Source: a virus (Duplodnaviria > Caudoviricetes). Taken from it: a stretch of DNA of 64,000 nucleotides. How positions within the stretch are numbered: position 1 is the stretch's first letter; each line of letters opens with the position of its first letter. Below the pieces are notes generated by a model. The model was not told the DNA's origin, did not search any database, and was given only the letters and a program-made list of their open reading frames with translations. Location: the IMG/VR virus record IMGVR_UViG_3300042691_031247. One strand, 5' to 3'. The position numbers and the translations under genes were made by a program. Shown here piece by piece: positions 6,312 through 56,696 of the stretch.

Positions 6312-8126
6312 TCATGCTCGTTGTTGTGGCTGTAAGAGTTTCATCGCGTTGGCAAACATGTGCGGATCGAGTTTGGGCGGTAATGGTTTCGCGGGCGGCG
6401 CTTTCAGTGTGTTCCCCAGTGCGCCGGCGCCGTAGCCAGCCGCGCCCATTAAACCTGTGGCCCCCAGTCCCAAGAGCGTGCGGTTGCGGGCCATGAGCTT
6501 CAGGCCCTTCTGCACGATTGGTTTATTCGTAATACCTAATATCTTAGCGCCCGGGCGTGTGAGCAGCGTACTGGGCAGCACGTCCATGTGGGAAAGTTGC
6601 GGTTTTACGGCGCCGATATCGCTCAGTACGGCAGACGGCATCGAACCGCAATGATTGCCCCAGCATCGCGTTCCGATGCCGCGGCCGCCAATAAACGGGA
6701 TCTTCTGCAGCCACGGAAACCGCCGGCGCAGCATGTTCAGGCCCATCACCTCTTTCGTGCCGGCACCGATGGCGGCTGAACTGGCGTAACCCTTGTTGGT
6801 TTCTACATTGAGCGACTTGGCCAGCTGCGACTCGTCGATATTGTCAGCCATGCGGGCGTAAATCGTGCCGCGCGGCTGCTCTGCGTAATAACCCTTGGGG
6901 AAGAGCTGCGACCTGTCTTTCATCGCGTCGTCGTACACATTGTCGATGCCCATGTGGGGATCGCCAGAATTAAACTTCCACGGGCGCTTCTTGGCGTCGA
7001 GCCGGCCTGCAGCCATGGCTTTTTGATTCTCACGCACACGCTGCCGCAAGATATTTAAACTCACGCCGTTGCGCCCAGCGATTTCGCGCTGGGCGGCTTC
7101 CGGCAGCGTTTCAAACAGATGGAACAGCGGATCATGCACCTGATCGAGCATCGCGCCGCCGTGATGCAGCGTGGGAATCAACCGCTCGAATGCTTTGGGT
7201 TTAAATAACTTTGAGCGGGCCAGATGTCCCTGCGGCATGCCCACTTCGTCAACGGCTTTGGTGATCGCGTCAGCCAGTGCGGGCGAGGATTTGGTCCCTC
7301 TGCGCCGAAATAAATCAGCCAGCGCTTTGAGTCTTTCTTTCTTGGCTAGGCTCTCGGGCGAGGCTGGATTGTCTGCCAGTGCGCGCACATTCGTCTCGAC
7401 TCGGCGCATCTTGGCCTGCGGTGTCCCCTCGAAGAACTCGCGCAGGCCGCCTTTCGCTGCATATGTCCCGCCCGTCGGTGTCGTGCGCTCAGTGGTCAGA
7501 AAGTTCTTAAAGTTCTTGACTAACTTATCGCGCCGGGCAACTAACTTACTGGCATCTGCACCCGTGGTCTTGGCCTCTTGAATCTGCCGAGACAGCGCGT
7601 TCAGCCGGGCTTTCATCAGGCCGTATTTATCACCGCCGCCTTCGAACGCCATGTAGCGCTCGGCGTTCGGCGCATTGCTGATGAATCCCTTGCGGTTCGT
7701 GGCCAGACCCGGGCTGTAGACTTCGCCGGCGTCGTTTACCAAGAACGATAGCGGCGGTGGTTTGCCGCCTTCGGGTGTGTTTGTGAGTGCGTGCGGCGCT
7801 TGAATATACGGCCCGACCATCTGGCCGTGCATGCCCGGACCGCCAGACGCTGCACCCGAGCCCTGAATCAGAAAGTTAACGAGATTACCGTCGCGACTCT
7901 GCTGTAGCCCAGACAAACCGAGGTCGCCGGGCTTGAGGGTCTTGAGCGCCTGCGCGACGTCCACGTTCCCGTTGGCCAGCGTCCAGTCCGGGGCGTCGTT
8001 GATGAGCTTTTTATATTTGGGCAGCGTGACGAGGAGATATTCGAGCAGGCTGGCTGCTGGAAGCGCTGCGCCCGCGGTTGCACCAATGGGGCGTAAATCT
8101 ACGCCATTGTCTTCAGGTGCGGGCAT
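6312..8126 (-). CDS. large protein with a putative split, permuted papain-like (YiiX/YaeF-type) amidase domain
   Basis: LKPGDLGL and His100 near the N-terminus; Cys493 in CGSMPSAVLSDIG...DVLPSTLL near the C-terminus. Confidence 0.55.
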   Translation of the reverse strand: MPAPEDNGVDLRPIGATAGAALPAASLLEYLLVTLPKYKKLINDAPDWTLANGNVDVAQALKTLKPGDLGLSGLQQSRDGNLVNFLIQGSGAASGGPGMHGQMVGPYIQAPHALTNTPEGGKPPPLSFLVNDAGEVYSPGLATNRKGFISNAPNAERYMAFEGGGDKYGLMKARLNALSRQIQEAKTTGADASKLVARRDKLVKNFKNFLTTERTTPTGGTYAAKGGLREFFEGTPQAKMRRVETNVRALADNPASPESLAKKERLKALADLFRRRGTKSSPALADAITKAVDEVGMPQGHLARSKLFKPKAFERLIPTLHHGGAMLDQVHDPLFHLFETLPEAAQREIAGRNGVSLNILRQRVRENQKAMAAGRLDAKKRPWKFNSGDPHMGIDNVYDDAMKDRSQLFPKGYYAEQPRGTIYARMADNIDESQLAKSLNVETNKGYASSAAIGAGTKEVMGLNMLRRRFPWLQKIPFIGGRGIGTRCWGNHCGSMPSAVLSDIGAVKPQLSHMDVLPSTLLTRPGAKILGITNKPIVQKGLKLMARNRTLLGLGATGLMGAAGYGAGALGNTLKAPPAKPLPPKLDPHMFANAMKLLQPQQRA

Positions 8127-8220
8127 AGTCTGTCTACCGGTTTTGATAACAATGGCGCAATTTTACCTGCTCTCATTCTAATACAAAAGCGAGGCCGGCC
8201 GAAAAACTAGTTACCAGAGC

Positions 8221-8279
8221 GCTGATAGTTAAAAAAACGCTTACGCGTGCGGAGCCGTCGCCTCCGCTGCCGATAAGTT
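8221..8279 (-). terminator. intrinsic terminator followed by a variant of the conserved 13-mer
   Basis: gcggag/ctccgc stem, then T7 and AACTATCAGC on the minus strand. Confidence 0.6.
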
Positions 8280-8603
8280 TTACTCGCCGTCGTACACCTC
8301 AAACCGCTCCCAGACACCGTTGCGGCAGCAATCGACCACCCAGTACGACCGGTCTACTTCGACCGTATCGTCACTAAGGACGCAGGCGTGCCGCTCGGTG
8401 TGGTAGCAGTAATCCGCGGAGAGCGTATCCGTACCGTCGCCGATGTCCACAACGTGCGCCGTGCAGTAGTTGGGGTTGGTGATCCGGTCGCGGCGGGCCG
8501 CAAACAGCGCCGCCCGGAGATCGCACTGATTGTTGAACAGCTTGTCCACATAGCGCTCCGCATCGCCCATGTGCTCAAAGAACGTAACAGTATTCGGGGT
8601 CAT
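8280..8603 (-). CDS. hypothetical protein (cassette gene)
   Basis: AAGGAG before ATG at 8603; high GC3 coding pattern. Confidence 0.7.
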   Translation of the reverse strand: MTPNTVTFFEHMGDAERYVDKLFNNQCDLRAALFAARRDRITNPNYCTAHVVDIGDGTDTLSADYCYHTERHACVLSDDTVEVDRSYWVVDCCRNGVWERFEVYDGE

Positions 8604-8668
8604 GACAAACTCCTTCGGAAAACCAGAACCCGCAACCACGCAACACACGCAGTGCTATAGGCCCTCAA

Positions 8669-8700
8669 TAGATATGACCGCTTTTTGCCCGATATTTAGC
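8669..8700 (-). promoter_or_regulatory. conserved promoter-like motif, copy 1 (GCTAAATA-N16-CATATCTA)
   Basis: one of 7 copies with an invariant 16-nt spacer, upstream of a gene start. Confidence 0.75.
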
Positions 8701-8707
8701 TCGGGTT

Positions 8708-8753
8708 CTGATAGCTAAAAAAAGGCGCCCAAGACAACGAGTCAGGGGCGCCT
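8708..8753 (-). terminator. intrinsic terminator plus conserved 13-mer
   Basis: aaggcgccc/gggcgcctt stem, T7, then AGCTATCAG. Confidence 0.75.
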
Positions 8754-8788
8754 TCAAACCGTTCCGAGGAGGACGGTTTAAGACAACG

Positions 8789-9502
8789 TTAGGCGGCAGC
8801 GACCGCGGCCTTGTTGGCGCGCATCGCCTTCACCTTCGCCTCGACGGCGGGCAGGATCTTGGCCAGCGTGCTCTCCTGCACGCCGCCCTCGAACAGCCCG
8901 AACAGCGCGGCCGACGTGCAGCCACCGGAGACCGCAGCGAACAGGATCGCCGTGACCTTGGTGATCGTCACGCCCGCGCCAGCCGCGGCAGCAAGGCCGC
9001 CGGTCGTGACGCCGACAGCGACACCGACCGTGGTGCCCACGCCAATCGCCGCGGCTGCCGCGACCAGCTTGAGCATGCCGGCGTTCACGTCCGAGATGTT
9101 CATGGAGCTGACCAGCGCATGAACTGCGGTCAGAGCCTTCTTGGCCTGACCGTAGGCGTTGTTCGCCATCTCCTTGATCCACGCCACCACCGCCGCCGTG
9201 GCCTCCTCGATCGCGCTGTACACGCGGCCGAGGAAGGACCAGACGCCCGAGGCGATCTTCTTGATCGCATCGGCGATGGTCTCGCAGACCGTCAACACGG
9301 CGCCACCGAGGGCGGAGACCGTGTCGACGACGAGACTGCCGGTGCGGGCCAGCAGGCTCTGCTCGGCCAGCGTCTGCTGCACGAGCTGGTCGATCTGCTC
9401 GTCGGTCAGCTCCGGCTTCGTGGCCGTGCGCGTGACCTTGCCGACCTTGACCTTCGCCTTGACGCCGCGGGTCTTCACGGGGATCTTCTTCGTTGCAGCC
9501 AT
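8789..9502 (-). CDS. hypothetical protein with amphipathic helices and a hydrophobic hairpin
   Basis: AGGA RBS, very high GC3, flanked by promoter and terminator motifs. Confidence 0.8.
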   Translation of the reverse strand: MAATKKIPVKTRGVKAKVKVGKVTRTATKPELTDEQIDQLVQQTLAEQSLLARTGSLVVDTVSALGGAVLTVCETIADAIKKIASGVWSFLGRVYSAIEEATAAVVAWIKEMANNAYGQAKKALTAVHALVSSMNISDVNAGMLKLVAAAAAIGVGTTVGVAVGVTTGGLAAAAGAGVTITKVTAILFAAVSGGCTSAALFGLFEGGVQESTLAKILPAVEAKVKAMRANKAAVAAA

Positions 9503-9588
9503 CTGAACAGTTCCTTAAACATGAGGACATCGATTGCGCAGAAGCCCATGCAATCCGTCTGGGGACGCCAATAACACATTGGCATCAT

Positions 9589-9620
9589 TAGATATACCCG
9601 GCTTTTCGGCTTTATTTAGC
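9589..9620 (-). promoter_or_regulatory. conserved promoter-like motif, copy 2
   Basis: GCTAAATA-N16-TATATCTA, directly fused to GCTGATA. Confidence 0.7.
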
Positions 9621-9622
9621 TA

Positions 9623-10702
9623 TCAGCCGTTATTCCGGGTTTTCACCGCCATCTGCTCCCGCGCAGGCCACAACACCATCTGTTGCATTGTGTCCTCGTC
9701 GGTTGCGTCGCCGAGTAACTGCAGAGCTGTTACTGGACGCTGCGCAATGCTTTCTTTACGCTCGTCGGTCAAGCTGTCGCGCAGCACAGCCTTGAGCGCG
9801 TCATACCGGGGATACGTCACCCATCCTTCAGCTTTGTCCGGGTTGTACTTTTCGTACTTCCTGTGGACATAGTGATTGGTTTGCACCAGTCCGTTGCGTC
9901 TGGTGCGAATGGCGTCGTCATCTCCGACATGCGTCACAACAGTGTGTTCATGGGCTTTGGTGCCAACCACGTGCGCAAAGAACGGCACGATGGTTTCATA
10001 GCTCCGTAGCCCGAGAACCAGACTGTTGTAACTCTTTGGCAGTAGGTCGCAGGCGGCTCGGACCCGCTGTAACACGGGCCACTTAAAGAGCAGCTTAGGC
10101 GCCGACAGCCAGCCAAACAAGCTATTCAGTTTATTTACAACTGGAGCTTGATTGACAGTGACAGCCCATGAATCACCCATGGCAGAGATCACGCCCACCA
10201 TGCCCGCCACGCCTACAGATGTATAAGCTTGGCGACCACGATGAAAGCGAAAGATCCGCGTGTGCCGGCCAGTACTGCGCGGCACCACCCAGTCCATGTT
10301 ACGGACCAGCACGGGGGACTTCTCAACATCAAAGCTGATACTGGAGCACCCACAACCGTACATCTCGGCTAAAGATGTGAAGTCGTAGATGAGGTTTCCC
10401 AGCATGAGCTTCCCCACAGGAACGTCGGCGTGCCGGGCAATGCACGCTAGTTCCTGTGTGTAATCTTCGCCAAACATGTCCACGATTTGGCGAAGTAACC
10501 AGCCGCCACCATTGGCCAGCGTATGCACAGCCGCCATGAGCGGACCGGGCAGGCTAGGCGCCACTGTCTCCTCGATTTCTGTTTCCACATCAGCGAGGAG
10601 CGACTGAATAGCATCTCCGTTTTGGATAGCAAAATCAGTCCAGCGCTCGTCAGCGGGGGCGTCCAGATCGATGTCCCAGACCTTGCCCGTGTAGAGCTTC
10701 AT
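9623..10702 (-). CDS. acid ceramidase / NAAA-like Ntn hydrolase
   Basis: N-terminal DIDLDAPADERW, nucleophile context GC-C119-SSI, RNMDW and VQTNH. Confidence 0.8.
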   Translation of the reverse strand: MKLYTGKVWDIDLDAPADERWTDFAIQNGDAIQSLLADVETEIEETVAPSLPGPLMAAVHTLANGGGWLLRQIVDMFGEDYTQELACIARHADVPVGKLMLGNLIYDFTSLAEMYGCGCSSISFDVEKSPVLVRNMDWVVPRSTGRHTRIFRFHRGRQAYTSVGVAGMVGVISAMGDSWAVTVNQAPVVNKLNSLFGWLSAPKLLFKWPVLQRVRAACDLLPKSYNSLVLGLRSYETIVPFFAHVVGTKAHEHTVVTHVGDDDAIRTRRNGLVQTNHYVHRKYEKYNPDKAEGWVTYPRYDALKAVLRDSLTDERKESIAQRPVTALQLLGDATDEDTMQQMVLWPAREQMAVKTRNNG

Positions 10703-10890
10703 GACGGGTCACGCCCTTTCTTCCGTTTAAACAAGCACACCAGCAGCGGCAATTCGTTGTGAATTGGCACGGCTGGCTGTGCAGGGCGTTTAAATAGAAA
10801 AACCGCCGGTACCGAATAGTGGAAGCTATTCGCGGGTACGGTGCCGCAGGAACGACGATCAGCCCGGCTACGCGTTTGCATAATCGGCAT
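10699..10890 (-). CDS. small hypothetical protein
   Basis: ATG at 10890 with a purine-rich upstream region; ATGA overlap with the next gene. Confidence 0.35.
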   Translation of the reverse strand: MPIMQTRSRADRRSCGTVPANSFHYSVPAVFLFKRPAQPAVPIHNELPLLVCLFKRKKGRDPS

Positions 10891-10892
10891 GA

Positions 10893-11285
10893 CTAGTTCC
10901 CTCCCTTCTTCGGCTTTGGCGCCAAGCCAAAGTCGCTGTTTTGGCCCGGGAACGGCACCGGGATGTTGAGCTTGTCGCAGCACTTGGTGACCAGATCTTC
11001 CAGTCGCTCGATGTACGCCAGCTGCAGGGCAGCCCGTGCGTCCACGATCTCTTGGAATCGCTTTTCCGTCAACTGTCTCGCAATCGCCAGCTCTTGGGCT
11101 GAGACGAGGTTGAGACGCAGCCGGTTGGTGGCTTCTTCAGCCTGCTCAATTCGCTCGAAGGCTTTGTTCAGCGTGACGGTCAAGAATCCGACCACCCTGC
11201 CCAGCTCTTCAACCCTGTCTTCCGCTGGCTTCGAAACATCGTCAGGAAGCCACTTGTTGATGTCCGTTTCAAACATCTGGCTCAT
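10893..11285 (-). CDS. coiled-coil hypothetical protein
   Basis: heptad-like pattern; sits downstream of promoter copy 3. Confidence 0.7.
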   Translation of the reverse strand: MSQMFETDINKWLPDDVSKPAEDRVEELGRVVGFLTVTLNKAFERIEQAEEATNRLRLNLVSAQELAIARQLTEKRFQEIVDARAALQLAYIERLEDLVTKCCDKLNIPVPFPGQNSDFGLAPKPKKGGN

Positions 11286-11353
11286 CGGTCATTCTCCTTA
11301 GCCGCGCAGAAGCGGCAGGACACAGATCCGCCCAATACACTACTGGGCGTCAC

Positions 11354-11385
11354 TGAATATGACCGGAATCGGGCTTTTATTTAGC
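11354..11385 (-). promoter_or_regulatory. conserved promoter-like motif, copy 3
   Basis: GCTAAATA-N16-CATATTCA; overlaps the stop codon of the upstream gene. Confidence 0.75.
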
Positions 11386-12582
11386 TATCAGCGGCTGGCT
11401 CTGCGTCGCCCGAAAGTTGCGCAACGCGGCGGCTAAAAACTTCTGATAGCTCGCGCCGACGCCGCCACGATTAGGAAGTCGGGCGCCGGTATTGAGCGCG
11501 CCGGACGTAATTCTGGGTGGGACAAAGTTGCTTAAACCGCTCACCTGCAAGCGCGGCAGGAGTTTTAATAACATGTCTCCGCGGCCCGCTTCTTTCCCAA
11601 ACGCATACGCGCTGGAGCACTTGCAGTTCCATTTGCGCAGGGATTTGTTAATACGCGAGTCAGGGTCGGACTTGGTTTTACTACCTGTGTTTACACGCTT
11701 CATGCCGCACATCCGCGAGCAGAAAGAGTCCTGACGCTTCTTGGCTTTTCCCTTGGGATTCTTCTCAGTGACCGGGGCTTTTAAGTTCCCGCCCGTCTCC
11801 CGTTCGTAGCTTTTGCGCCCCTTTTCATTGAGCCCGCCTTCAGGATTCTTACCCGAAGAGCGCTGCCACGCCGGCGTACTGCCCAACTTCTCACCCCCTA
11901 CCGAATTAGCCGTCCCAAACGCTGCGTTCCCTGTGATATCGCCCGTGGAAGACAGCGCGCCGTAAGAGTTAATGGGGTTGGCATTGGGAGAAGAGCCGCC
12001 GCCAACAGGGGGAAGCTGGCCAGACGGCGCCGGGGAGCCCATGTTCGCCGGTTGGGCGGCGGGAGCCTGTGGTTGAGCCTGCGGCGCCTGTGGTTGCATC
12101 CCCATCGGCAGGGGAGTACCGGCTGCAGGCATGGCGTAGCGCTTTATACCGGCGTTTGCAGGCATGCGGGCAGCCTCTCGGGCCTCTAGCTCAGCCCTTT
12201 CGTTCTCTATCGCCTGCATTATGGGCTGCGACAAGACAGCAGAAATCTTCGCCATCAGCTTGTTTACACCATAATTTGGCTTTATTTCTGAATTACACCG
12301 TTCGCCCTTGGTCTTCACTACCTTGGGTGGATTTTCACCTGCAACCGTGGGCTTAGCACTGGCCGGCTGCTCGATATAGACCTCTTTGGTGTCCGCTTTC
12401 TTGGATAATTTTCTGTAAATATCGAGGGCTACAGAGTTTACAGCCGATTGTTTATGAGTTGTCTCTTTATTAGCGTACATAGGGAGTTTCTTTTTGGTTG
12501 GATACTCGTGTGCCCAGCGTTTGGCGATGTCTGGATGCGCTGCCCAGAGAAATCTACGCTGTTTTTCAGACTTAAACGGCAT
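11377..12582 (-). CDS. modular phage protein containing a DUF6321-like domain
   Basis: N-terminal MPFKSEKQRRFLWAAHPDIAKRW; AWQRSSGKNPEGGLNEKGRKSY...SFCSRM...DSRINKSLRKWNC. Confidence 0.75.
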   Translation of the reverse strand: MPFKSEKQRRFLWAAHPDIAKRWAHEYPTKKKLPMYANKETTHKQSAVNSVALDIYRKLSKKADTKEVYIEQPASAKPTVAGENPPKVVKTKGERCNSEIKPNYGVNKLMAKISAVLSQPIMQAIENERAELEAREAARMPANAGIKRYAMPAAGTPLPMGMQPQAPQAQPQAPAAQPANMGSPAPSGQLPPVGGGSSPNANPINSYGALSSTGDITGNAAFGTANSVGGEKLGSTPAWQRSSGKNPEGGLNEKGRKSYERETGGNLKAPVTEKNPKGKAKKRQDSFCSRMCGMKRVNTGSKTKSDPDSRINKSLRKWNCKCSSAYAFGKEAGRGDMLLKLLPRLQVSGLSNFVPPRITSGALNTGARLPNRGGVGASYQKFLAAALRNFRATQSQPLIAK

Positions 12583-12796
12583 GGCGTAGCTCGAAAGATA
12601 GTGAACTCAGAGGGATTCCCGGAGTTAGGGTGCGAACTAGTCGGAAAAACCTATAAGTTGGTCGGCGCGGCTGTTCCCAAGCTGAATACGCCTCATTTTG
12701 GCATACGGGGGCTGAGAAGAAAAGGGCGAAGAGGCGTCTGGTACACTGGAAAGATAGTTGGGGAATGGATTCAGGCGTTTCGACAAGGAGGCCGCC

Positions 12797-13126
12797 ATGA
12801 GATCTCTAAGAATTCTAGTGTTTAGCCTGCTGTGCGTGATGGGAATGGGAAAAGTGTGCGCCGATACGGTATTAATGTTCTCCGCTGACTGGTGTAAGTA
12901 CTGCAAGATCGCTAAGGCGGACTTATTGGAGAACAAAGACGAGGTGAATGGCTGGGGGTTAGAGGTAGTGGACACCGATGTGAGCCGGGAACTGGTCAAG
13001 CAGTACGGAGTGAAGAGCCTGCCGACGTTTATCTATCTAAATGACGCCGGGGAAGAGCTGGATAGAGTGGCAGGCTATAAGGGATATAACCGGCTACGGC
13101 GTTGGGTCGAAAAGAGCGCGCGCTGA
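12797..13126 (+). CDS. thioredoxin-like protein with a signal/anchor peptide
   Basis: WCKYC, GVKSLPT cis-Pro motif; AAGGAG before ATG at 12797. Confidence 0.85.
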   Translation: MRSLRILVFSLLCVMGMGKVCADTVLMFSADWCKYCKIAKADLLENKDEVNGWGLEVVDTDVSRELVKQYGVKSLPTFIYLNDAGEELDRVAGYKGYNRLRRWVEKSAR

Positions 13127-13152
13127 TAGCTAAAAAAAGGGGCCGAAGCCCC
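13122..13152 (-). terminator. terminator between convergent genes, with the conserved 13-mer
   Basis: GCTGATAGCTAAAAAAA followed by a ggggc-cgaa-gcccc hairpin. Confidence 0.7.
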
Positions 13153-13181
13153 GAGAAACAACACGAGAGAGGCGGCGTAGT

Positions 13182-13505
13182 TTACGCGCCACAGGCCGAT
13201 AGCCCGCGGCAGCCGCAAGGCTGGCCCTTCTCGTCGCGCACCAGTTCGCCCGGAGCGAACACGTCAGTACGGTTGATGCGCGCAGCAACCATACCCGACA
13301 CCACATACACCGTGTCGGCGGCGGGAGCCGGGAGGTCTTCCACCTCGCCAAACTCCACAGCAAATGTGTCGATGCCGTCGACACTCGGGCCGGGAACCCG
13401 GCGGGTGGCCACGCGCGCCACCTTGCCCGACGGGGGCACTTCCCGAACAGAGCCATTGGAAGCATGGATGTTCAGCGCGTGGGGGGTGAGGTTAACAATG
13501 GTCAT
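13182..13505 (-). CDS. conserved phage hypothetical protein (NLTPH family)
   Basis: MTIVNLTPH...PPSGKVARV; GGAG before ATG at 13505. Confidence 0.8.
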   Translation of the reverse strand: MTIVNLTPHALNIHASNGSVREVPPSGKVARVATRRVPGPSVDGIDTFAVEFGEVEDLPAPAADTVYVVSGMVAARINRTDVFAPGELVRDEKGQPCGCRGLSACGA

Positions 13506-13603
13506 GGTTGCTCTCCTTGAGGCAAAGTCCGCTACCCTTGGACTCTGGGGAGTAATGCCGGATTGACGTACAACACGCACGTCAATAACACCGGGGTTCT
13601 CAC

Positions 13604-13635
13604 TAGATATGCCCGGATTTTGATAGATATTTAGC
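13604..13635 (-). promoter_or_regulatory. conserved promoter-like motif, copy 4
   Basis: GCTAAATA-N16-CATATCTA. Confidence 0.75.
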
Positions 13636-13640
13636 CGGGC

Positions 13641-13686
13641 GCTGATAGCTAAAAAAAGCGCCCGCACGGTTTAGATGCGGGCGCTT
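13641..13686 (-). terminator. intrinsic terminator plus conserved 13-mer
   Basis: agcgcccgca/tgcgggcgct stem, T7, AGCTATCAGC. Confidence 0.8.
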
Positions 13687-13690
13687 CTGC

Positions 13691-13912
13691 CTACGGGGCC
13701 GAGAGGGTTGTCCACTCGCCGGCGTAGGTCTGTTCCAGCGGATTGATGATCCGTGGCTTTTGCTCTGGAGCGGGGCGTGGAGCCGGGAGAGTTACGCCGG
13801 TTGGTTGCTGCCAACGCGCCGTGAACTCGTCCCAGCCTTTCGGGGCCTGAGCTTTATCCGAAACCCACCCAATGAGCGCCAGACCACCGACAATCATAAG
13901 CAGCGTGGTCAT
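13691..13912 (-). CDS. small membrane-anchored protein
   Basis: N-terminal transmembrane segment; between promoter copy 5 and a terminator. Confidence 0.65.
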   Translation of the reverse strand: MTTLLMIVGGLALIGWVSDKAQAPKGWDEFTARWQQPTGVTLPAPRPAPEQKPRIINPLEQTYAGEWTTLSAP

Positions 13913-13979
13913 AAGGCTATTTCCTTTCTATACATCGTGCCGGGCAAAGCGTAATTTTTGGCTTACGCCTATCCGTCAC

Positions 13980-14011
13980 TAAATATGACCGGAAATAATG
14001 GGTTATTTAGC
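13980..14011 (-). promoter_or_regulatory. conserved promoter-like motif, copy 5
   Basis: GCTAAATA-N16-CATATTTA. Confidence 0.75.
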
Positions 14012-14095
14012 CCGTAGCCAGACCATGATATCTAAACCCATGTCCTCGTCTTCGTCGTCGTCTGTGGTAAAGATATCCATACTGTGCGCGCGCAT
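14003..14095 (-). CDS. 30-aa acidic microprotein (MRAHSMDIFTTDDDEDEDMGLDIMVWLRAK)
   Basis: translated by hand; GGAGG 5 nt before the ATG. Confidence 0.45.
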   Translation of the reverse strand: MRAHSMDIFTTDDDEDEDMGLDIMVWLRAK

Positions 14096-14201
14096 ATGTA
14101 CCTCCAGACGACGGGTGGGTAAAACGTGGCGCAATTATACGGTTTTGATAACATGTCCCGAAGCATAAAGAAGTCCGTATGCGTTTTTCTTACAGCTATT
14201 T

Positions 14202-14286
14202 GACGTAACATGTTGATATACAAAGACTTAGCGCGTGCGGGTTTTTCCTGCTTGGCGTAAGTCTTTGCGCGACAATATGTTACGTC
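14202..14286. repeat. pair of inverted imperfect palindromes (TAAS-N3-TTG-N5-CAA-N3-STTA) forming a long hairpin
   Basis: cgtaacatgttgatatacaaagacttag (14204-14231) and cgtaagtctttgcgcgacaatatgttacg (14256-14284). Confidence 0.65.
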
Positions 14287-14287
14287 T

Positions 14288-14334
14288 AATAGCTAAGAAA
14301 AAGCGCGGTCAGGGTCCGAAGACCACTGCCGCGC
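14288..14334 (-). terminator. intrinsic terminator plus 13-mer variant
   Basis: gcgcgg...ccgcgc stem, T-rich tail, AGCTATT. Confidence 0.65.
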
Positions 14335-14341
14335 GTAGGGG

Positions 14342-14569
14342 TTAGACAGTCTCGAACTCGGCGTCGATCACCGTGTAGCTGTCGAACTCGTCGTTCAGGA
14401 TCGCTGCTTCCGCCGGGATGCACTCGCAGACGCCCAGTTCAAGGCCGCAGTGCAGGCAGTGCTCGATGTCGACGTCCGCTGGGGCGATTGCCACGGCGAA
14501 CACGAACAGCATGTCCCGGTAGTCGTCCACATTGACCTTCACCGCCGGGTTGTTGCGAAGCTGAGCCAT
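14342..14569 (-). CDS. small hypothetical protein with CxxC-x5-CxC
   Basis: AAGGAGG upstream of ATG at 14569; HCLHCGLELGVCEC. Confidence 0.7.
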   Translation of the reverse strand: MAQLRNNPAVKVNVDDYRDMLFVFAVAIAPADVDIEHCLHCGLELGVCECIPAEAAILNDEFDSYTVIDAEFETV

Positions 14570-14754
14570 TATCTCGTCCTCCTTGAAGAGAAAATAAAAC
14601 AACCGCCGTCTCGTGGCGGCACAACGCTAATGGTCTCTCGCCATTAGACGGCCCCACCTATCACCGGGCAGGGGGTACGGCGAGGAAGTGCTATAGCTTC
14701 ATGCGTAAGGCCAGTGCAATACACACTGCCGCGGCAAGAGATATAGGTCCTCAA

Positions 14755-14786
14755 TAGATATGCCGTGTTTTTGGCAGATATTTAGC
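14755..14786 (-). promoter_or_regulatory. conserved promoter-like motif, copy 6
   Basis: GCTAAATA-N16-CATATCTA. Confidence 0.75.
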
Positions 14787-14794
14787 TAGGCCCG

Positions 14795-14841
14795 AATAGC
14801 TAAAAAAAAGCCGGCAGGGAAGCGCATCCCCACCGGCTTTT
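14795..14841 (-). terminator. intrinsic terminator plus 13-mer variant
   Basis: aaagccgg/ccggcttt stem, T8, AGCTATT. Confidence 0.75.
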
Positions 14842-15274
14842 ACGGAGTTAACGAGATCCGCGCTCGTGCCGAAGCGACCAATCGGTCGCCAAAAGAATCG
14901 TTAGCACAAGAAACGCTCGTGAGGACAGGTATCACTACCCGCCTACGCCCTGCAGCCGTTTGTTAGGTCACGGACAGTCTCGCGTTGTACGGACGCAAAA
15001 CTATGTTATTTAAAACTAGTCCGGCAGGTCTTTCACCTGCACCACCCGCTCCCCTAGCCATAATGTAGTGTAGTCGAGTGGAGTCACTTGGAATAGCCAA
15101 CGAGGCCCGGGCGGGGCATGCCCGCTATTCCGCCATCTACCCTAACGGTTCCTGCAAAACATTTCACGAAAGCTGCTCGCCCAGCCCTCTGCATGCACCT
15201 AGAGATAGGTTCATAACACATGCTTCTCACGAGCGCTTCTTGTGCCAACGTACGGATTCTAGCGGCCGTGTTGG
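14842..15274 (-). ncRNA. putative structured ncRNA of unknown class, closed by a 24-bp stem
   Basis: arms 14900-14923 and 15226-15249 pair with two G-U wobbles on the minus strand; several internal helices; no credible ORF. Confidence 0.6.
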
Positions 15275-15562
15275 CTACGTCAACGTGTCAATATAGTGCT
15301 GTGTAGAGCACACATAACGCGTGACGATATCTTCGGCTTCGCTCCCGGGGCAGCGCTGGTCTAACTCTTGGACCAGCGCGCCCATCGACCTGCGGATGTT
15401 TCCCAGAGCGCGGCGGAGCTGCTTTACTTCAACCTCCGCGTCTGTTTTATATCTCGTCCCGCTTTTCGTGTTCACTGTCGGAGCCAACGCTGCCTTCTCC
15501 TTGTGTACTACTTCGGTCCACCACTGGTTGTTCCACTTCGTCGCCGTCCTCGTCGCTGGCAT
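15275..15562 (-). CDS. hypothetical protein
   Basis: open frame with plausible composition; overlaps the upstream ORF. Confidence 0.5.
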   Translation of the reverse strand: MPATRTATKWNNQWWTEVVHKEKAALAPTVNTKSGTRYKTDAEVEVKQLRRALGNIRRSMGALVQELDQRCPGSEAEDIVTRYVCSTQHYIDTLT

Positions 15563-15746
15563 CTTGACTCACTACTATTAGTAGCGCTTCCTTGAGGGTG
15601 TCGATCAGGGTGTTGGCACAATCATCCACGACTTTACGCAGATGATCCATTCTGTCAATCGTTTCGCGCATCTCGTCTCTGGTTTTCACCAACGTTTCTG
15701 CAAGCTTGAGCAAAGCCTGCGCCATCGCTATCGACAAGTTATCCAC
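15447..15746 (-). CDS. coiled-coil hypothetical protein
   Basis: AAGGAG with GTG start. Confidence 0.55.
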   Translation of the reverse strand: MDNLSIAMAQALLKLAETLVKTRDEMRETIDRMDHLRKVVDDCANTLIDTLKEALLIVVSQDASDEDGDEVEQPVVDRSSTQGEGSVGSDSEHEKRDEI

Positions 15747-21556: not shown

Positions 21557-21801
21557 CTCGCTGACTCCTTTAAGCATGCCTCAGCAAGGCCGCCTAAAAC
21601 GACCCAGCCAAGAAATGCGCCTATTAGGTTTACTGCTTCTCCCATCTGGAAGGACCGCGCCGCAAATAGCCCAAGTGCGGTGCCGGCCACAGTACACATA
21701 ACAACCAAGATCTCACGCATAATCGGGTATGGCATGGCATCCTCCTTGCGTAGCCCGAATGTGTGCGCCCAAATCCGCAAACACGTATTTGCGGGGCACA
21801 C
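21553..21801 (-). CDS. small two-TM membrane protein (start probably the internal MPYP)
   Basis: two hydrophobic segments; ATGA overlap with the next gene. Confidence 0.6.
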   Translation of the reverse strand: MCPANTCLRIWAHTFGLRKEDAMPYPIMREILVVMCTVAGTALGLFAARSFQMGEAVNLIGAFLGWVVLGGLAEACLKESAR

Positions 21802-21836
21802 GAAATATGCCCGGATATTGCCAAAAATTTAGGCAA

Positions 21837-29959: not shown

Positions 29960-30004
29960 AAAAAAAGACCCGCCGAGTGAGCATCGTTGAGAGGCCCGGC
30001 GGGT
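29960..30004 (-). terminator. intrinsic terminator ending the fibre operon
   Basis: acccgccg/cggcgggt stem followed by T7 on the minus strand. Confidence 0.7.
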
Positions 30005-30403: not shown

Positions 30404-30459
30404 GAGTTTGCTCCATTAGGTGTTATCAGTATACCTGCCAACACAAGTTTGCTCAACCG

Positions 30460-55928: not shown

Positions 55929-56211
55929 TATCTACTCCTTTATTCAAGTTACCATCCTTGACGGATTGAGTTCCAAAGTGTTTCGACGAATATAAGGCCC
56001 ACTCATTCGGAGTTACGACAATCTCTTCATAGTCTCCACTAGAAGTCTTGTCGTAAAACTGAACAAGCGTCCGAGTTACATCGAGAACTTCCTGTCTTCG
56101 CACAGGACGTCCTTGGAATCTCACAACATCACGCAAACACGAGTCCCCCCTTACAGCAATAGAGCTGCGGTTATTGATGCTGCCCGCGCTCAACGATAAA
56201 GCGCAGTACAA

Positions 56212-56243
56212 TAAATATGCCAGCTTATGCTGAAAAATTTAGT
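56212..56243 (-). promoter_or_regulatory. conserved promoter-like motif, copy 7 (variant)
   Basis: ACTAAATT-N16-CATATTTA. Confidence 0.55.
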
Positions 56244-56696
56244 TCAGCTGTCTGGGTCGGGCAGCACGCCGTCGAAGACGTTTAGAGCGCCGTCGTCTTC
56301 GTCAGAAAAGAAGTCACCTGAGTTTACAGATGATTTTGGCGCATTAGGCGCCTTGATTGCGGGGGGCGCTTCAAGGTGCACAGGGTCGACGCCAAGGTAA
56401 CCGGTTTCATCTGGTTCAAGGTTGTCTGTCGCCATATCAAACAGAGGCATGTTTCCCCACGGCGTCAGCAAATACCGCAACGGCGGTTTAGATATGTTTA
56501 ACCGCACACCAGCAAAGCTAAACACGCTGACGTCACGATTAACCAACTCTTTCAGGCGCGCGGTCAGTTTCTCTAGCGCGTCAAACTCCTCGACTTTGAA
56601 ATCGCCTTCCGGGCTAAGAATAACAGCATAGTAGTGCCCGGGAGCTTCAGCGCCTTCGGGTGTGATTTTGACTTCGGGGTTCGGTGCGTCGTCCAT
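56244..56696 (-). CDS. acidic hypothetical protein
   Basis: operon packing. Confidence 0.7.
   Translation of the reverse strand: MDDAPNPEVKITPEGAEAPGHYYAVILSPEGDFKVEEFDALEKLTARLKELVNRDVSVFSFAGVRLNISKPPLRYLLTPWGNMPLFDMATDNLEPDETGYLGVDPVHLEAPPAIKAPNAPKSSVNSGDFFSDEDDGALNVFDGVLPDPDS

What the first reader, a model, noticed from the sequence alone, without database searches (positions are those of the whole stretch)
8669..14786. Seven copies of a bipartite promoter-like motif, GCTAAATA-N16-CATAT(C/T)(T/C)A, with a fixed spacer
Seen: minus-strand copies at 8669, 9589, 11354, 13604, 13980, 14755 and 56212, each with exactly 16 nt between the boxes and each upstream of a gene. Most have CGG just before the second box. 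It does not match sigma70. Inference: a promoter for a phage-encoded or alternative (group 3-like) sigma factor, or for a phage RNA polymerase. It drives a regulon of single-gene accessory cassettes, comparable to the promoter-stem-loop modules of T4-like phages.
Basis: partly seen in the sequence, partly recalled or inferred. Interest (0 to 1): 0.75.

Follow-up and report, generated by a model that had tools for sequence, protein, structure and literature searches.

The report
Phage-specific promoter with terminator cassettes
The repeated two-box motif is almost certainly a dedicated promoter of a large uncultured lake phage that carries its own sigma factor and RNA polymerase, and it drives a small set of short accessory and regulatory transcription units.

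Summary
The motif is real. Five copies fit the stated pattern exactly, against 0 expected by chance. Two listed copies deviate by 1-2 bases.

A weight-matrix scan finds exactly these 9 sites and nothing intermediate. All are on the coding strand. Each lies 56-95 nt (one 182 nt) before a ribosome site and start codon, is often preceded by a terminator, and is always followed by a 5' hairpin.

The extended consensus is aGCTAAATw-N7-AAA-n-cCgGkCATATyTAnTG. The boxes and spacing are invariant across at least 11 related IMG/VR genomes, while the spacers vary.

The phage encodes one sigma70-family factor (domains 2-3-4) and a split bacterial-type RNA polymerase. Two cultured distant relatives with the same machinery, Salmonella phage Arash and Vibrio phage D69, carry a cognate strand-specific motif (G-K-Y-ATA-W-n-TA core) before their non-structural genes.

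Best reading: a promoter class read by the phage's own sigma, probably with the phage polymerase, which is found in the virion in Arash. In the 8.2-15.3 kb region it is combined with terminators into shuffling cassettes like T4 PeSLs. No transcription start has been mapped. I score it a new variant of a known kind.

The parts
8665..8701 (-). Promoter site 1: gAGCTAAATATCGGGCAAAAAGCGGTCATATCTATTGA. Predicted start near 8666.
   Evidence: Exact pattern match. PWM 53.5 bits. 62 nt to the SD+ATG of a 107-aa ORF.
9585..9621 (-). Promoter site 2, with TATAT in place of CATAT. It overlaps the TGA/TAG stops of the upstream 359-aa gene. Predicted start near 9586.
   Evidence: One mismatch. PWM 49.3 bits. 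83 nt to the SD+ATG of a 237-aa ORF.
11350..11386 (-). Promoter site 3. It overlaps the stop of the upstream 401-aa gene. Predicted start near 11351.
   Evidence: Exact match. PWM 46.1 bits. 65 nt to the SD+ATG of a 130-aa ORF, which is followed by the 359-aa NAAA/AAT-like (Ntn-hydrolase-type) gene.
13600..13636 (-). Promoter site 4. Predicted start near 13601.
   Evidence: Exact match. PWM 51.4 bits. 95 nt to the SD+ATG of a 107-aa ORF (phrog_21731/30542, unknown function).
13976..14012 (-). Promoter site 5. Predicted start near 13977.
   Evidence: Exact match. PWM 45.5 bits. 64 nt to the SD+ATG of a 73-aa ORF. A lake metatranscriptome contig covers 13752-13969 and stops 8 nt inside the predicted start.
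14751..14787 (-). Promoter site 6. Predicted start near 14752. It is followed by a 182-nt leader.
   Evidence: Exact match. PWM 54.1 bits. The leader ends in a terminator-like hairpin at 14620-14602, before a 75-aa ORF.
21798..21834 (-). It sits just after the glycosyltransferase gene. Predicted start near 21799.
   Evidence: Three mismatches to the literal pattern, but PWM 46.6 bits. 63 nt to a 60-aa ORF, then a 233-aa ORF, 6 tRNAs and a tmRNA downstream. Syntenic in relatives.
56208..56244 (-). Promoter site 8 (AACTAAATT...). It overlaps the stop of the upstream 150-aa gene. Predicted start near 56209.
   Evidence: Two mismatches. PWM 44.7 bits. About 70 nt to a 103-aa ORF, then a 412-aa ORF; the next terminator is 1871 nt downstream. 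Syntenic in relatives.
14797..14841 (-). Intrinsic terminator, T-run and AGCTAT, directly upstream of site 6. It ends the non-coding RNA gene.
   Evidence: 15-bp stem followed by T8. The T-run lies 24 nt before the -35 box.
13642..13684 (-). Intrinsic terminator of the 73-aa gene, T7 and AGCTATCAG, directly upstream of site 4.
   Evidence: Sequence. Terminator scan. AGCTATCAG at 13642-13650.
8708..8752 (-). Intrinsic terminator of the 237-aa gene, T7 and AGCTATCAG, directly upstream of site 1.
   Evidence: Sequence. Terminator scan. AGCTATCAG at 8708-8716.
13123..13152 (-). Terminator, T7 and AGCTATCAG, closing the 107-aa cassette. No promoter follows, because the next gene is on the other strand.
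8222..8266 (-). Terminator, T7 and AACTATCAG, closing the last cassette of the cluster.
8280..14569 (-). The genes driven from the cluster: 8280-8603 (107 aa); 8789-9502 (237 aa); 10893-11285 (130 aa) with 9623-10702 (359 aa, NAAA/AAT-like); 13182-13505 (107 aa); 13691-13912 (73 aa); 14342-14569 (75 aa).
   Evidence: ORF and SD positions. Pfam and PHROG scans find almost nothing. Promoter-to-terminator units measure 353-896 nt.

Best explanation
The motif is a promoter class specific to this phage lineage. CTAAAT acts as a -35-type box. After a 17-bp spacer, (c)G-G/T-CATAT-y-TA acts as an extended -10-type box. Transcription should start at or next to the invariant TG, 33-34 nt after the C of CTAAAT, so each RNA begins with a stable 5' hairpin.

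The motif is most likely read by the phage's single sigma70-family factor (280 aa, domains 2, 3 and 4). That factor probably works with the phage's own bacterial-type RNA polymerase (a beta-beta'N fusion plus beta'C). In the cultured relative Arash both proteins are found in the virion, so this would be an early, host-independent regulon.

In G000 the regulon has 9 units:
- Six small units with mostly unknown products in a hyperplastic region (window 8.2-15.3 kb). Most are bounded by terminator + AGCTATCAG + promoter junctions, and these junctions also serve as recombination points for swapping cassettes between relatives.
- Three syntenic 'core' units. One holds CsrA and a 4x alpha-CTD protein. 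One lies upstream of the tRNA/tmRNA cluster. One precedes a block of genes of unknown function.

Shown here: the motif, its geometry, its placement, its conservation, and the presence of the sigma and polymerase genes. Inferred: which enzyme reads it, the exact start site, and the timing.
For: Statistics
- 5 exact copies against 0 expected.
- The PWM score distribution is sharply bimodal, with exactly 9 sites.
- The two halves never occur apart: the -10 half alone occurs 10 times on the minus strand, 9 of them in the sites, and once on the plus strand.

Placement
- 9 of 9 sites are on the coding strand, 56-95 nt (one 182 nt) before an SD and start codon.
- Terminator T-runs lie 23-24 nt upstream of three sites, and terminators lie 353-896 nt downstream of five.
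- A stable hairpin starts 2-8 nt after the predicted start in G000, G006 and G007.

Phylogenetic footprint
- 4-11 exact copies per genome in 11 relatives (G001-G004, G006-G008, G010-G012, G014; 1-2 in the fragmentary G005, G009 and G010), all exact matches on a single strand of each genome.
- The reversed-pattern control gives at most 1 per genome in the exact (0-mismatch) scans. In the scan allowing 1 mismatch the control gives 0-5 per genome, but every 0-mismatch match there is on one strand per genome.
- Spacers differ freely while the boxes, G21 and T32-G33 stay invariant.
- More distant G013 and G026 keep CTnAAT-N15-G(G/T)CATA..TG variants.

Machinery
- Sigma: Pfam Sigma70_r3 at 39.9 bits (above cutoff), with weaker r4 and r2 matches. 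A profile hits SigA/RpoD at E 8e-15. The AlphaFold model has three helical domains joined by a disordered linker, and all top Foldseek hits are sigma factors.
- Polymerase: Rpb2_6 at 172 bits and Rpb1_2 at 88 bits in one 1467-aa protein, and Rpb1_5 at 85 bits in a 626-aa protein. The GADFDGD motif is conserved.
- Every genome at least 96% complete that carries the motif also has the sigma.
- The sigma recognition helix (ITPGAVSQRAAKIQ) is invariant wherever CTAAAT is invariant.
- The sigma lacks the melting residues of sigma70: the equivalents of Y430, W433 and W434 are H, S and Q. This fits the near-consensus stringency of all 9 sites, as established for alternative sigmas (Koo et al. 2009, from memory).

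Cognate motif in cultured relatives with other hosts
- Arash: tGGTATAAGwAA.gTGTA, 30 copies on the minus strand against 1 on the plus strand. G is preferred 30:2 over the T that sigma70 requires.
- D69: tTaAaTA-N13-..G(T/G)TATAAGtAAtaTG, 24 against 4.
- The shared core is G-K-Y-ATA-W-n-TA, and the TAAAT box sits at the same 20-nt distance.

Other
- The Arash virion proteome contains beta, beta' and sigma Gp10 (PMC10585845).
- Weak RNA hint: a lake metatranscriptome contig covers 13752-13969 and ends 8 nt inside the predicted start of site 5, without entering the promoter.
Against: - No 5' end has been mapped. The only RNA data are assembled contigs, which cannot show starts.
- Nothing ties the sigma to this motif biochemically. 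Co-occurrence within one lineage is also what common descent alone would give.
- Only 9 sites exist for about 230 genes. If the phage polymerase needs this sigma, most genes must be read through from far upstream or transcribed by another enzyme. No site lies upstream of the replication genes (148-198 kb).
- The host is unknown, so a host alternative sigma with a similar consensus cannot be excluded. The sigma32 and sigma28 geometries both fit.
- Virion packaging is known only for Arash, whose sigma is 28% identical.
- In D69 the motif approaches a sigma70 extended -10 promoter (TTcAAT-N16/17-TGtTATAAg). Host sigma70 reading of that relative's sites is therefore not excluded.
Confidence: 0.55

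Rival explanations
1. The same promoter is read by the phage sigma, but the sigma is bound to the host core RNA polymerase. This would be sigma appropriation as with T4 gp55 or SPO1 gp28. The phage's own polymerase would use other signals.
For: - The sigma aligns over regions 2-4 with cellular SigA/RpoD.
- In the survey of Iyer et al. 2021 (PMC7824862), jumbo phages with sigma factors use them to recruit the host core, and no sigma is found in the group 1 (PhiKZ-type) jumbo phages, which hold nearly all the phage-encoded polymerases.
- Only 9 sites exist, which suits a small switch regulon.
Against: - The sigma gene sits in the structural (baseplate) block, and its Arash orthologue is in the virion together with beta and beta'.
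- The phage encodes a complete catalytic core with no other known specificity factor.
Confidence: 0.2
2. A host-encoded alternative sigma of the heat-shock (sigma32) or flagellar (sigma28) type reads the motif. The phage would simply borrow a host regulon signal.
For: The geometry matches both consensuses (recalled from established knowledge). For sigma32, CTTGAAA-N13/14-CCCCATNT puts CT and CAT.T at the same positions. For sigma28, TAAA-N15-GCCGATAA matches TAAA and G...ATA. These are positions.
Against: - The invariant positions (G21, T32-G33, CTAAAT rather than CTTGAA) fit neither consensus.
- The same motif is kept in relatives down to 67% sigma identity, and in variant form in the more distant G013, whose sigma scores 156 bits against about 470 for close relatives.
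- A cognate core is kept in phages of Salmonella and Vibrio, where it matches no known host sigma consensus.
Confidence: 0.1
3. The sites are weak housekeeping (sigma70) promoters that need a phage activator, for example the 4x alpha-CTD protein or another factor. The conserved boxes would then be partly activator sites.
For: - The spacer is 17 bp.
- The CATATT variant shares 4 of 6 bases with TATAAT, including A-11 and T-7.
- The D69 version resembles an extended -10 promoter.
- A true sigma70-type promoter (TTGACG-N16-TAGAAT) exists nearby, so the host enzyme is probably used by this phage.
Against: - The -35 box shares 2 of 6 bases with TTGACA.
- 40% of sites have C at the position of T-7, and Arash and D69 have G there (30:2 over T in Arash).
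- The consensus scan does not report any site.
Confidence: 0.08
4. The motif is not a promoter. It would be a recombination or cassette-junction signal, or a protein operator, that merely marks module borders.
For: - Among relatives the same spacer is joined to different leaders and genes, and the reverse also occurs.
- AGCTATCAG after terminators is the reverse complement of the CTGATAGCT that overlaps the -35 box at gene ends.
Against: - Orientation is strict, and the distance to start codons is fixed.
- A terminator lies before each junction and a 5' hairpin after it.
- The two-box geometry uses a 17-bp spacer.
- Three sites are syntenic and not at variable junctions.
- T4 PeSLs show that promoter and junction roles coexist (PMC4122927).
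Confidence: 0.04

Closest known systems
PeSL (promoter-early stem-loop) composite terminator/promoter cassettes of T4-like phages (Arbiol et al. 2010, PMC2839356; Comeau et al. 2014, PMC4122927)
   Same: Short conserved terminator-plus-promoter junctions flank small genes of unknown function in a hyperplastic region. They also coincide with mosaic breakpoints between close relatives.
   Different: T4 PeSL promoters are host sigma70 early promoters. Here the promoter is a non-sigma70 consensus in a phage that has its own sigma and RNA polymerase. An extra AGCTATCAG box follows the terminator. The same promoter also serves three conserved non-cassette units.
Promoters of group-3 sigma factors: sigma28/FliA (TAAA-N15-GCCGATAA) and sigma32/RpoH (CTTGAAA-N13/14-CCCCATNT). 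Both are recalled from established knowledge.
   Same: An A-rich -35 box containing TAAA. A G/C-extended -10 with an ATA/CAT.T core at the same distances. Very stringent consensus. A sigma that lacks the sigma70 melting aromatics.
   Different: The invariant bases differ (CTAAAT; G-k-CATAT; TG at the start). The sigma is no closer to FliA or RpoH than to RpoD/SigA.
Early promoters of virion-delivered phage RNA polymerases: N4 vRNAP hairpin promoters, phiKZ/AR9 virion RNAPs (PMC7598289, PMC5312081) and P23-45 (PMC10770324)
   Same: A small, sharply defined promoter set would be read by an injected enzyme to express the first genes. The polymerase genes lie among the structural genes.
   Different: Those enzymes work without a sigma70-family factor, and their promoters are hairpins or short single boxes. 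Iyer et al. 2021 found no sigma in the group 1 (PhiKZ-type) jumbo phages, which hold nearly all phage-encoded polymerases. Here the promoter is a classical two-box sigma-type signal. Packaging is not shown for this phage.
The GGTATAAG / GTTATAAG motifs of Salmonella phage Arash and Vibrio phage D69.
   Same: Core G-K-Y-ATA-W-n-TA, with a TG a few bases later. A TAAAT-like box lies 20 nt upstream in D69. Strict strand bias. Position just before genes. The phage encodes orthologous sigma and RNAP.
   Different: - 24-30 copies spread over the whole non-structural block, against 9 here.
- Short leaders (25-40 nt) without the 5' hairpin.
- G at the last -10 position.
- TG lies 2 nt further downstream.
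- The -35 box is weak in Arash.

Membership tests
Bacterial-type (sigma70-family) two-box promoter | Two conserved boxes about 17 bp apart, in one orientation, upstream of genes | tested here: met
   CTAAAT-N17-CATATy in 9 of 9 sites and in 40 of 40 distinct sites of relatives. All are on the coding strand, 56-182 nt before start codons.
Bacterial-type (sigma70-family) two-box promoter | Transcripts start 5-9 nt after the -10 box | not testable with these tools
   Only assembled RNA contigs were available. One contig ends 8 nt inside the predicted start of site 5. The 5' hairpins begin 2-8 nt after the predicted start.
Housekeeping sigma70 promoter (TTGACA-N17-TATAAT) | At least 4 of 6 bases in each hexamer, 9 of 12 overall, with A-11 and T-7 | tested here: not met
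   The consensus scan of 8000-15600 reports none of the six sites, only the promoter of the non-coding RNA. The -35 box matches 2 of 6 bases.
Sigma70-family sigma factor (the presumed reader, genome 32348-33190) | Domains sigma2, sigma3 and sigma4 with a region 4.2 helix-turn-helix | tested here: met
   Pfam r3 at 39.9 bits (cutoff 25.3), r4 at 20.9 bits and a weak r2 match. A profile against the PDB gives SigA at E 8e-15 over positions 80-256. The model has three helical domains, and all top 50 Foldseek hits are sigma factors.
Sigma70-family sigma factor (the presumed reader, genome 32348-33190) | Binds this motif and directs initiation | not testable with these tools
   There is only co-occurrence, and the recognition helix is invariant wherever the -35 box is invariant.
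PeSL-type mobile regulatory cassette | A composite terminator + promoter between small variable genes | tested here: met
   In three junctions the terminator T-run lies 23-24 nt before the -35 box. Five units measure 353-896 nt from promoter to terminator.
PeSL-type mobile regulatory cassette | Junctions are points of exchange between otherwise unrelated sequences in close relatives | tested here: inconclusive
   The same spacer occurs with different leaders and genes, and the same leader with different spacers or upstream contexts. No formal breakpoint or recombination test was done.
Virion-RNAP early promoter | The polymerase and specificity factor are packaged and injected, and transcription is independent of the host RNAP | not testable with these tools
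   Known only from the Arash virion proteome (PMC10585845). There are no data for this phage.

The most novel reading that the evidence does not exclude
The motif is the early promoter of a virion-delivered holoenzyme made of a phage-encoded bacterial-type RNA polymerase and a phage-encoded sigma70-family factor. That combination is not among the characterised virion RNAPs and is absent from published jumbo-phage surveys. If so, a conserved G-K-Y-ATA-W-n-TA promoter code runs through a whole clade that includes the culturable phages Arash and D69.
Probability: 0.4. Interest if true: 0.8.

Novelty: new variant of a known kind. Interest (0 to 1): 0.62.

Why it matters
Phage transcription strategies are usually split in two. 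Some phages bring a polymerase that works without sigma (N4, phiKZ, AR9, crAss-like). Others bring a sigma that hijacks the host core (T4, SPO1). This freshwater clade, with Arash and D69, carries both a bacterial-type polymerase and a full sigma, and no promoter has been reported for it in the papers I could search.

A sharply defined two-box promoter gives that machinery a testable target. It predicts the start sites and defines the regulon: small genes of unknown function, CsrA, a 4x alpha-CTD protein and perhaps the tRNA/tmRNA block. The cognate motif in two culturable phages makes the question answerable at the bench.

The terminator-promoter junctions also extend the PeSL idea of regulatory cassettes as recombination joints beyond T4-like phages.

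Tried and rejected
- N4-like reading. The 3718-aa ORF (32740-43896) first looked like an N4 virion RNAP. It is a giant fibre with 15 Laminin_G_3 domains and an Mtd_N domain. Rejected.
- T7-type RNAP search (PF00940). No hit, but the control genomes did not ring either, so this says nothing.
- Nucleotide search of 8000-15000 against GenBank phages. No match.
- Literal motif in Arash and D69. Absent, at the level of the reversed control. Their cognate motif appeared only through k-mer enrichment.
- RNA evidence. No RNA holder was listed for the 7.1-kb stretch. For 13500-15300, 16 RNA runs hold small parts. Laying four of them gave only contigs, mostly over the neighbouring non-coding RNA, and no table of starts. 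Parts without cover are not evidence.
- Complex prediction of sigma residues 40-200 with the beta'N part of the phage polymerase. No verdict (score 0.03, controls not run). This is neither for nor against binding.
- Genome-wide search for a second abundant promoter class. Sigma70-like hits are no more frequent on the coding strand than on the other (37 against 43), and few are intergenic. All-against-all comparison of intergenic regions found only this motif, the terminator-AGCTAT box and tRNAs.
- A -10-only subclass. Not found.
- Sigma/motif co-variation. G028 (sigma 41% identical) has cgGCATTATAa.gTG with a loose -35 box and an altered recognition helix (SHRMQQ against SQRAAK). G027 has no recognisable motif. 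This is suggestive, but too few lineages were compared to count as a test.
- Rfam. No family matches in any leader.

Full report
**Context.** The window is bases 91137-155136 of a 198,101-bp IMG/VR virus record. The record is 97% complete with GC 55.5%. About 194 of 231 ORFs lie on the minus strand. It is a tailed phage. It has collagen-like and Laminin_G fibres, a sheath-like protein, a DNA polymerase, helicases, six tRNAs and a tmRNA.

**Observation.**
- The literal pattern GCTAAATA-N16-CATATYYA occurs 5 times, all on the minus strand. Shuffles give 0.
It also finds an unlisted site at 21802-21833.
- The relaxed form CTAAAT-N17-YATAT finds 9 sites genome-wide, all on the minus strand.
- From 40 distinct sites in six related genomes I derived the consensus a-G-CTAAAT-w-N7-AAA-n-c-C-g-G-k-CATAT-y-T-A-n-T-G-w. 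Positions that were not part of the search pattern are still nearly invariant: G21 is 40/40, T32 is 40/40, G33 is 38/40 and A14 is 37/40.
- A weight matrix scores the 9 sites at 44.7-54.1 bits. Nothing else in the genome exceeds 14 bits, and the best score in a shuffled genome is 3.6.
- The -10 half never occurs without the -35 half.

**Placement.**
- Every site faces a downstream gene. The Shine-Dalgarno sequence and start codon lie 56-95 nt after the predicted start, and 182 nt in one case.
- Three sites follow an intrinsic terminator by 23-24 nt, through a conserved T-run + AGCTATCAG box. Three others overlap the stop codons of the upstream gene (GCTGATAGCTAAATAA).
- Five of the six clustered sites are closed by a terminator 353-896 nt downstream, so they are single small units.
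- In G000, G006 and G007, nearly every site is followed within 2-8 nt of the predicted start by a stable hairpin. This is the usual look of a protective 5'-terminal stem.
- None of the sites passes a sigma70 consensus scan. The only site in 8000-15600 that does is TTGACG-N16-TAGAAT, in front of the neighbouring non-coding RNA.

**Conservation.**
- Relatives were found through the sigma gene and the polymerase gene. They carry 4-11 exact copies each, always on one strand. The reversed-pattern control gives at most 1 per genome in the exact scans. It gives 0-5 in the scan that allowed one mismatch.
- A collection scan with a 16-base version of the motif (16 specified bases) found 106 stretches in IMG/VR, mostly on contigs of up to 224 kb.
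- Spacer sequences vary freely between paralogous and orthologous sites, while the boxes do not.
- Three sites are syntenic in all relatives, including G007, whose sigma is 67% identical. These are genome 11865, window 21802 and window 56212.
- The clustered sites vary in number and content. The same spacer is found joined to different leaders and genes, and the same leader to different spacers. This is the pattern described for PeSL cassettes of T4-like phages (PMC4122927).
- More distant genomes keep variants. G013 has CTnAAT-N15-GGCATA..TG. G026 has CT(T/A)AAT-N15-GTCATA. G028 has cgGCATTATAa.gTG with a loose -35 box.

**Machinery.**
- The genome has one sigma70-family gene (genome 32348-33190, 280 aa), inside a block of structural genes.
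  - Pfam region 3 passes its cutoff, and regions 4 and 2 are weaker.
  - NCBIfam aligns it over the whole RpoD C-terminal model.
  - A profile of 14 orthologues hits SigA at E 8e-15.
  - The AlphaFold model shows three helical domains (40-126, 133-180, 211-277) joined by a disordered linker. All top Foldseek hits are sigma factors.
  - In the alignment to SigA, the residues matching E. coli Y430, W433 and W434 are H110, S113 and Q114. Alternative sigmas that lack these melting residues demand near-consensus promoters (Koo et al. 2009, from memory). That fits the all-or-none score distribution.
- The region 4.2 helix is ITPGAVSQRAAKIQ. It differs from sigma70 at the base-contacting positions and is invariant in all relatives that keep CTAAAT.
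- The phage also encodes a multisubunit RNA polymerase. One part is a 1467-aa beta-beta'N fusion (Rpb2_6 at 172 bits, Rpb1_2 at 88 bits, GADFDGD conserved). The other is a 626-aa beta'C (Rpb1_5 at 85 bits).
- All genomes at least 96% complete that carry the motif also carry the sigma.
- In the published survey of jumbo phages, no sigma is found in the group 1 (PhiKZ-type) phages, which hold nearly all phage-encoded polymerases, and phages with sigmas lack polymerases (PMC7824862). In Salmonella phage Arash, whose sigma is 28% identical, beta, beta' and sigma Gp10 are all abundant in purified virions (PMC10585845).

**Cognate motif in cultured relatives.** The literal motif is absent from Arash and Vibrio phage D69. 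Intergenic k-mer enrichment nevertheless reveals one dominant motif in each.
- Arash: tGGTATAAGwAA.gTGTA, 30 copies on the minus strand against 1 on the plus strand, with GGTATAAT only twice. The copies lie 25-40 nt before the start codons of the minus-strand non-structural genes.
- D69: tTaAaTA-N13-tt.tG(T/G)TATAAGtAAtaTG, 24 copies against 4.
- Aligned on the GG, all three lineages share G-K-Y-A-T-A-W-n-T-A followed by a TG. In D69 the TAAAT-type box sits at the same 20-nt distance as here.
- The motif therefore follows the phage clade across Salmonella, Vibrio and an unknown freshwater host. In Arash it carries a G where sigma70 needs T-7. This is the strongest argument that phage-encoded machinery reads it, rather than a host sigma.

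**What the regulon contains.**
- The clustered units encode proteins of 73-250 aa without family matches, plus a 359-aa NAAA/AAT-like Ntn-hydrolase-type protein.
- The unit from the site at genome 11865 runs about 5.9 kb to the next strong terminator. It holds a CsrA homologue (70 bits) and a protein with four RNA polymerase alpha-CTD domains (156 bits).
- The site at window 21802 precedes two ORFs and then the tRNA/tmRNA cluster.
- Small proteins of unknown function together with regulators are the usual content of early, host-takeover transcription. That timing is an inference.

**Expression data.**
- No RNA run was listed for the whole stretch. Runs found with 13500-15300 hold small parts.
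- Laid contigs cover mainly the neighbouring non-coding RNA.
- One 218-nt contig (96% identical, depth 8) covers 13752-13969. That is the leader and gene of site 5. It ends 8 nt inside the predicted start at 13977 and does not enter the promoter. Contigs cannot prove a start, so this is a weak hint only.

**Verdict.**
- The promoter reading is very likely (about 0.9). It rests on geometry, placement, terminators, 5' hairpins and a deep phylogenetic footprint.
- Reading by the phage sigma is likely (about 0.75 over both core-enzyme options).
- Use of the phage's own, possibly injected, polymerase is plausible but untested.
- The closest known systems are T4 PeSL cassettes for the architecture and group-3 sigma promoters for the geometry. 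The motif is a member of neither consensus.
- Other agents of this scan had already noted the sigma, the polymerase and the Arash link on this genome. The promoter-to-machinery connection, the exact regulon and the cognate motifs in Arash and D69 are added here.

Noticed in passing
L274-L281 (Salmonella phage Arash OQ632216, whole record), e.g. record 20676, 32944, 37874, 46639 (minus strand): A strand-specific motif, tGGTATAAGwAA.gTGTA, occurs 30 times on the minus strand and once on the plus strand. It lies 25-40 nt before the start codons of the non-structural genes. I found no paper describing it.
   Followed up: partly
L282-L291 (Vibrio phage D69 OZ195729), e.g. record 31076, 110898, 135855 (minus strand): The motif tTaAaTA-N13-tt.tG(T/G)TATAAGtAAtaTG occurs 24 times on the minus strand and 4 times on the plus strand. 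Its copies often follow a terminator-like T-run plus 'TTTTTAG', much as in this window.
   Followed up: partly
window 30428-30434 (minus strand); also genome 52513, 49256 and 2375 (L003, L001): (T)GTATACT occurs 4 times in intergenic DNA, 25-35 nt before the start codons of structural genes (a sheath-like protein, a 757-aa tail protein and others). Only 2 further copies exist in the whole genome. This may be a second, single-box (late?) promoter class.
   Followed up: partly
window 14570-14752 (minus strand): The leader of promoter site 6 is 182 nt long and folded. It ends in a terminator-like hairpin (14620-14602) just before the ribosome site of a 75-aa ORF. This is an attenuator or riboswitch candidate with no Rfam match.
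   Followed up: no
window 15256-15283 (minus strand) and 14941-15179: A near-consensus sigma70 promoter (TTGACG-N16-TAGAAT) precedes the non-coding RNA gene. That RNA is covered by contigs in four lake metatranscriptomes. The phage therefore appears to use at least two promoter types.
   Followed up: partly
L262-L263 (G028 = IMGVR_UViG_3300018080_000104, 185.7-190.2 kb, minus strand): An array of at least 20 units about 95 nt apart. Each holds CACACTTTACTACCAAGACCAACAGAACATAATC (readable as CTTTAC-N17-CATAAT), amid 8-nt-periodic 'nAGCnnnGC' sequence. The function is unknown. It could be a promoter array or a small-RNA array.
   Followed up: no
L001:7001-8128:- and L001:8754-9044:- (genome coordinates, outside the window): A 375-aa protein with four tandem RNA polymerase alpha-CTD domains and a CsrA homologue lie in the unit driven by the ninth promoter copy (genome 11838-11865).
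   Followed up: partly
window 29968-30003 (minus strand): A match to the Rfam abiF RNA motif (44.6 bits, gathering score 37) just downstream of the collagen-like fibre gene.
   Followed up: no
window 8708-8716, 13123-13131, 13642-13650 (minus strand) and 9612-9620, 11377-11385: AGCTATCAG after terminators is the exact reverse complement of the CTGATAGCT that overlaps the -35 box at gene-end junctions. The two junction types therefore share an inverted 9-mer.
   Followed up: no
window 12758-13126 (plus strand): A lone opposite-strand cassette inside the cluster encodes a secreted thioredoxin-like protein (WCKYC motif). It has no copy of the promoter motif on its strand.
   Followed up: no
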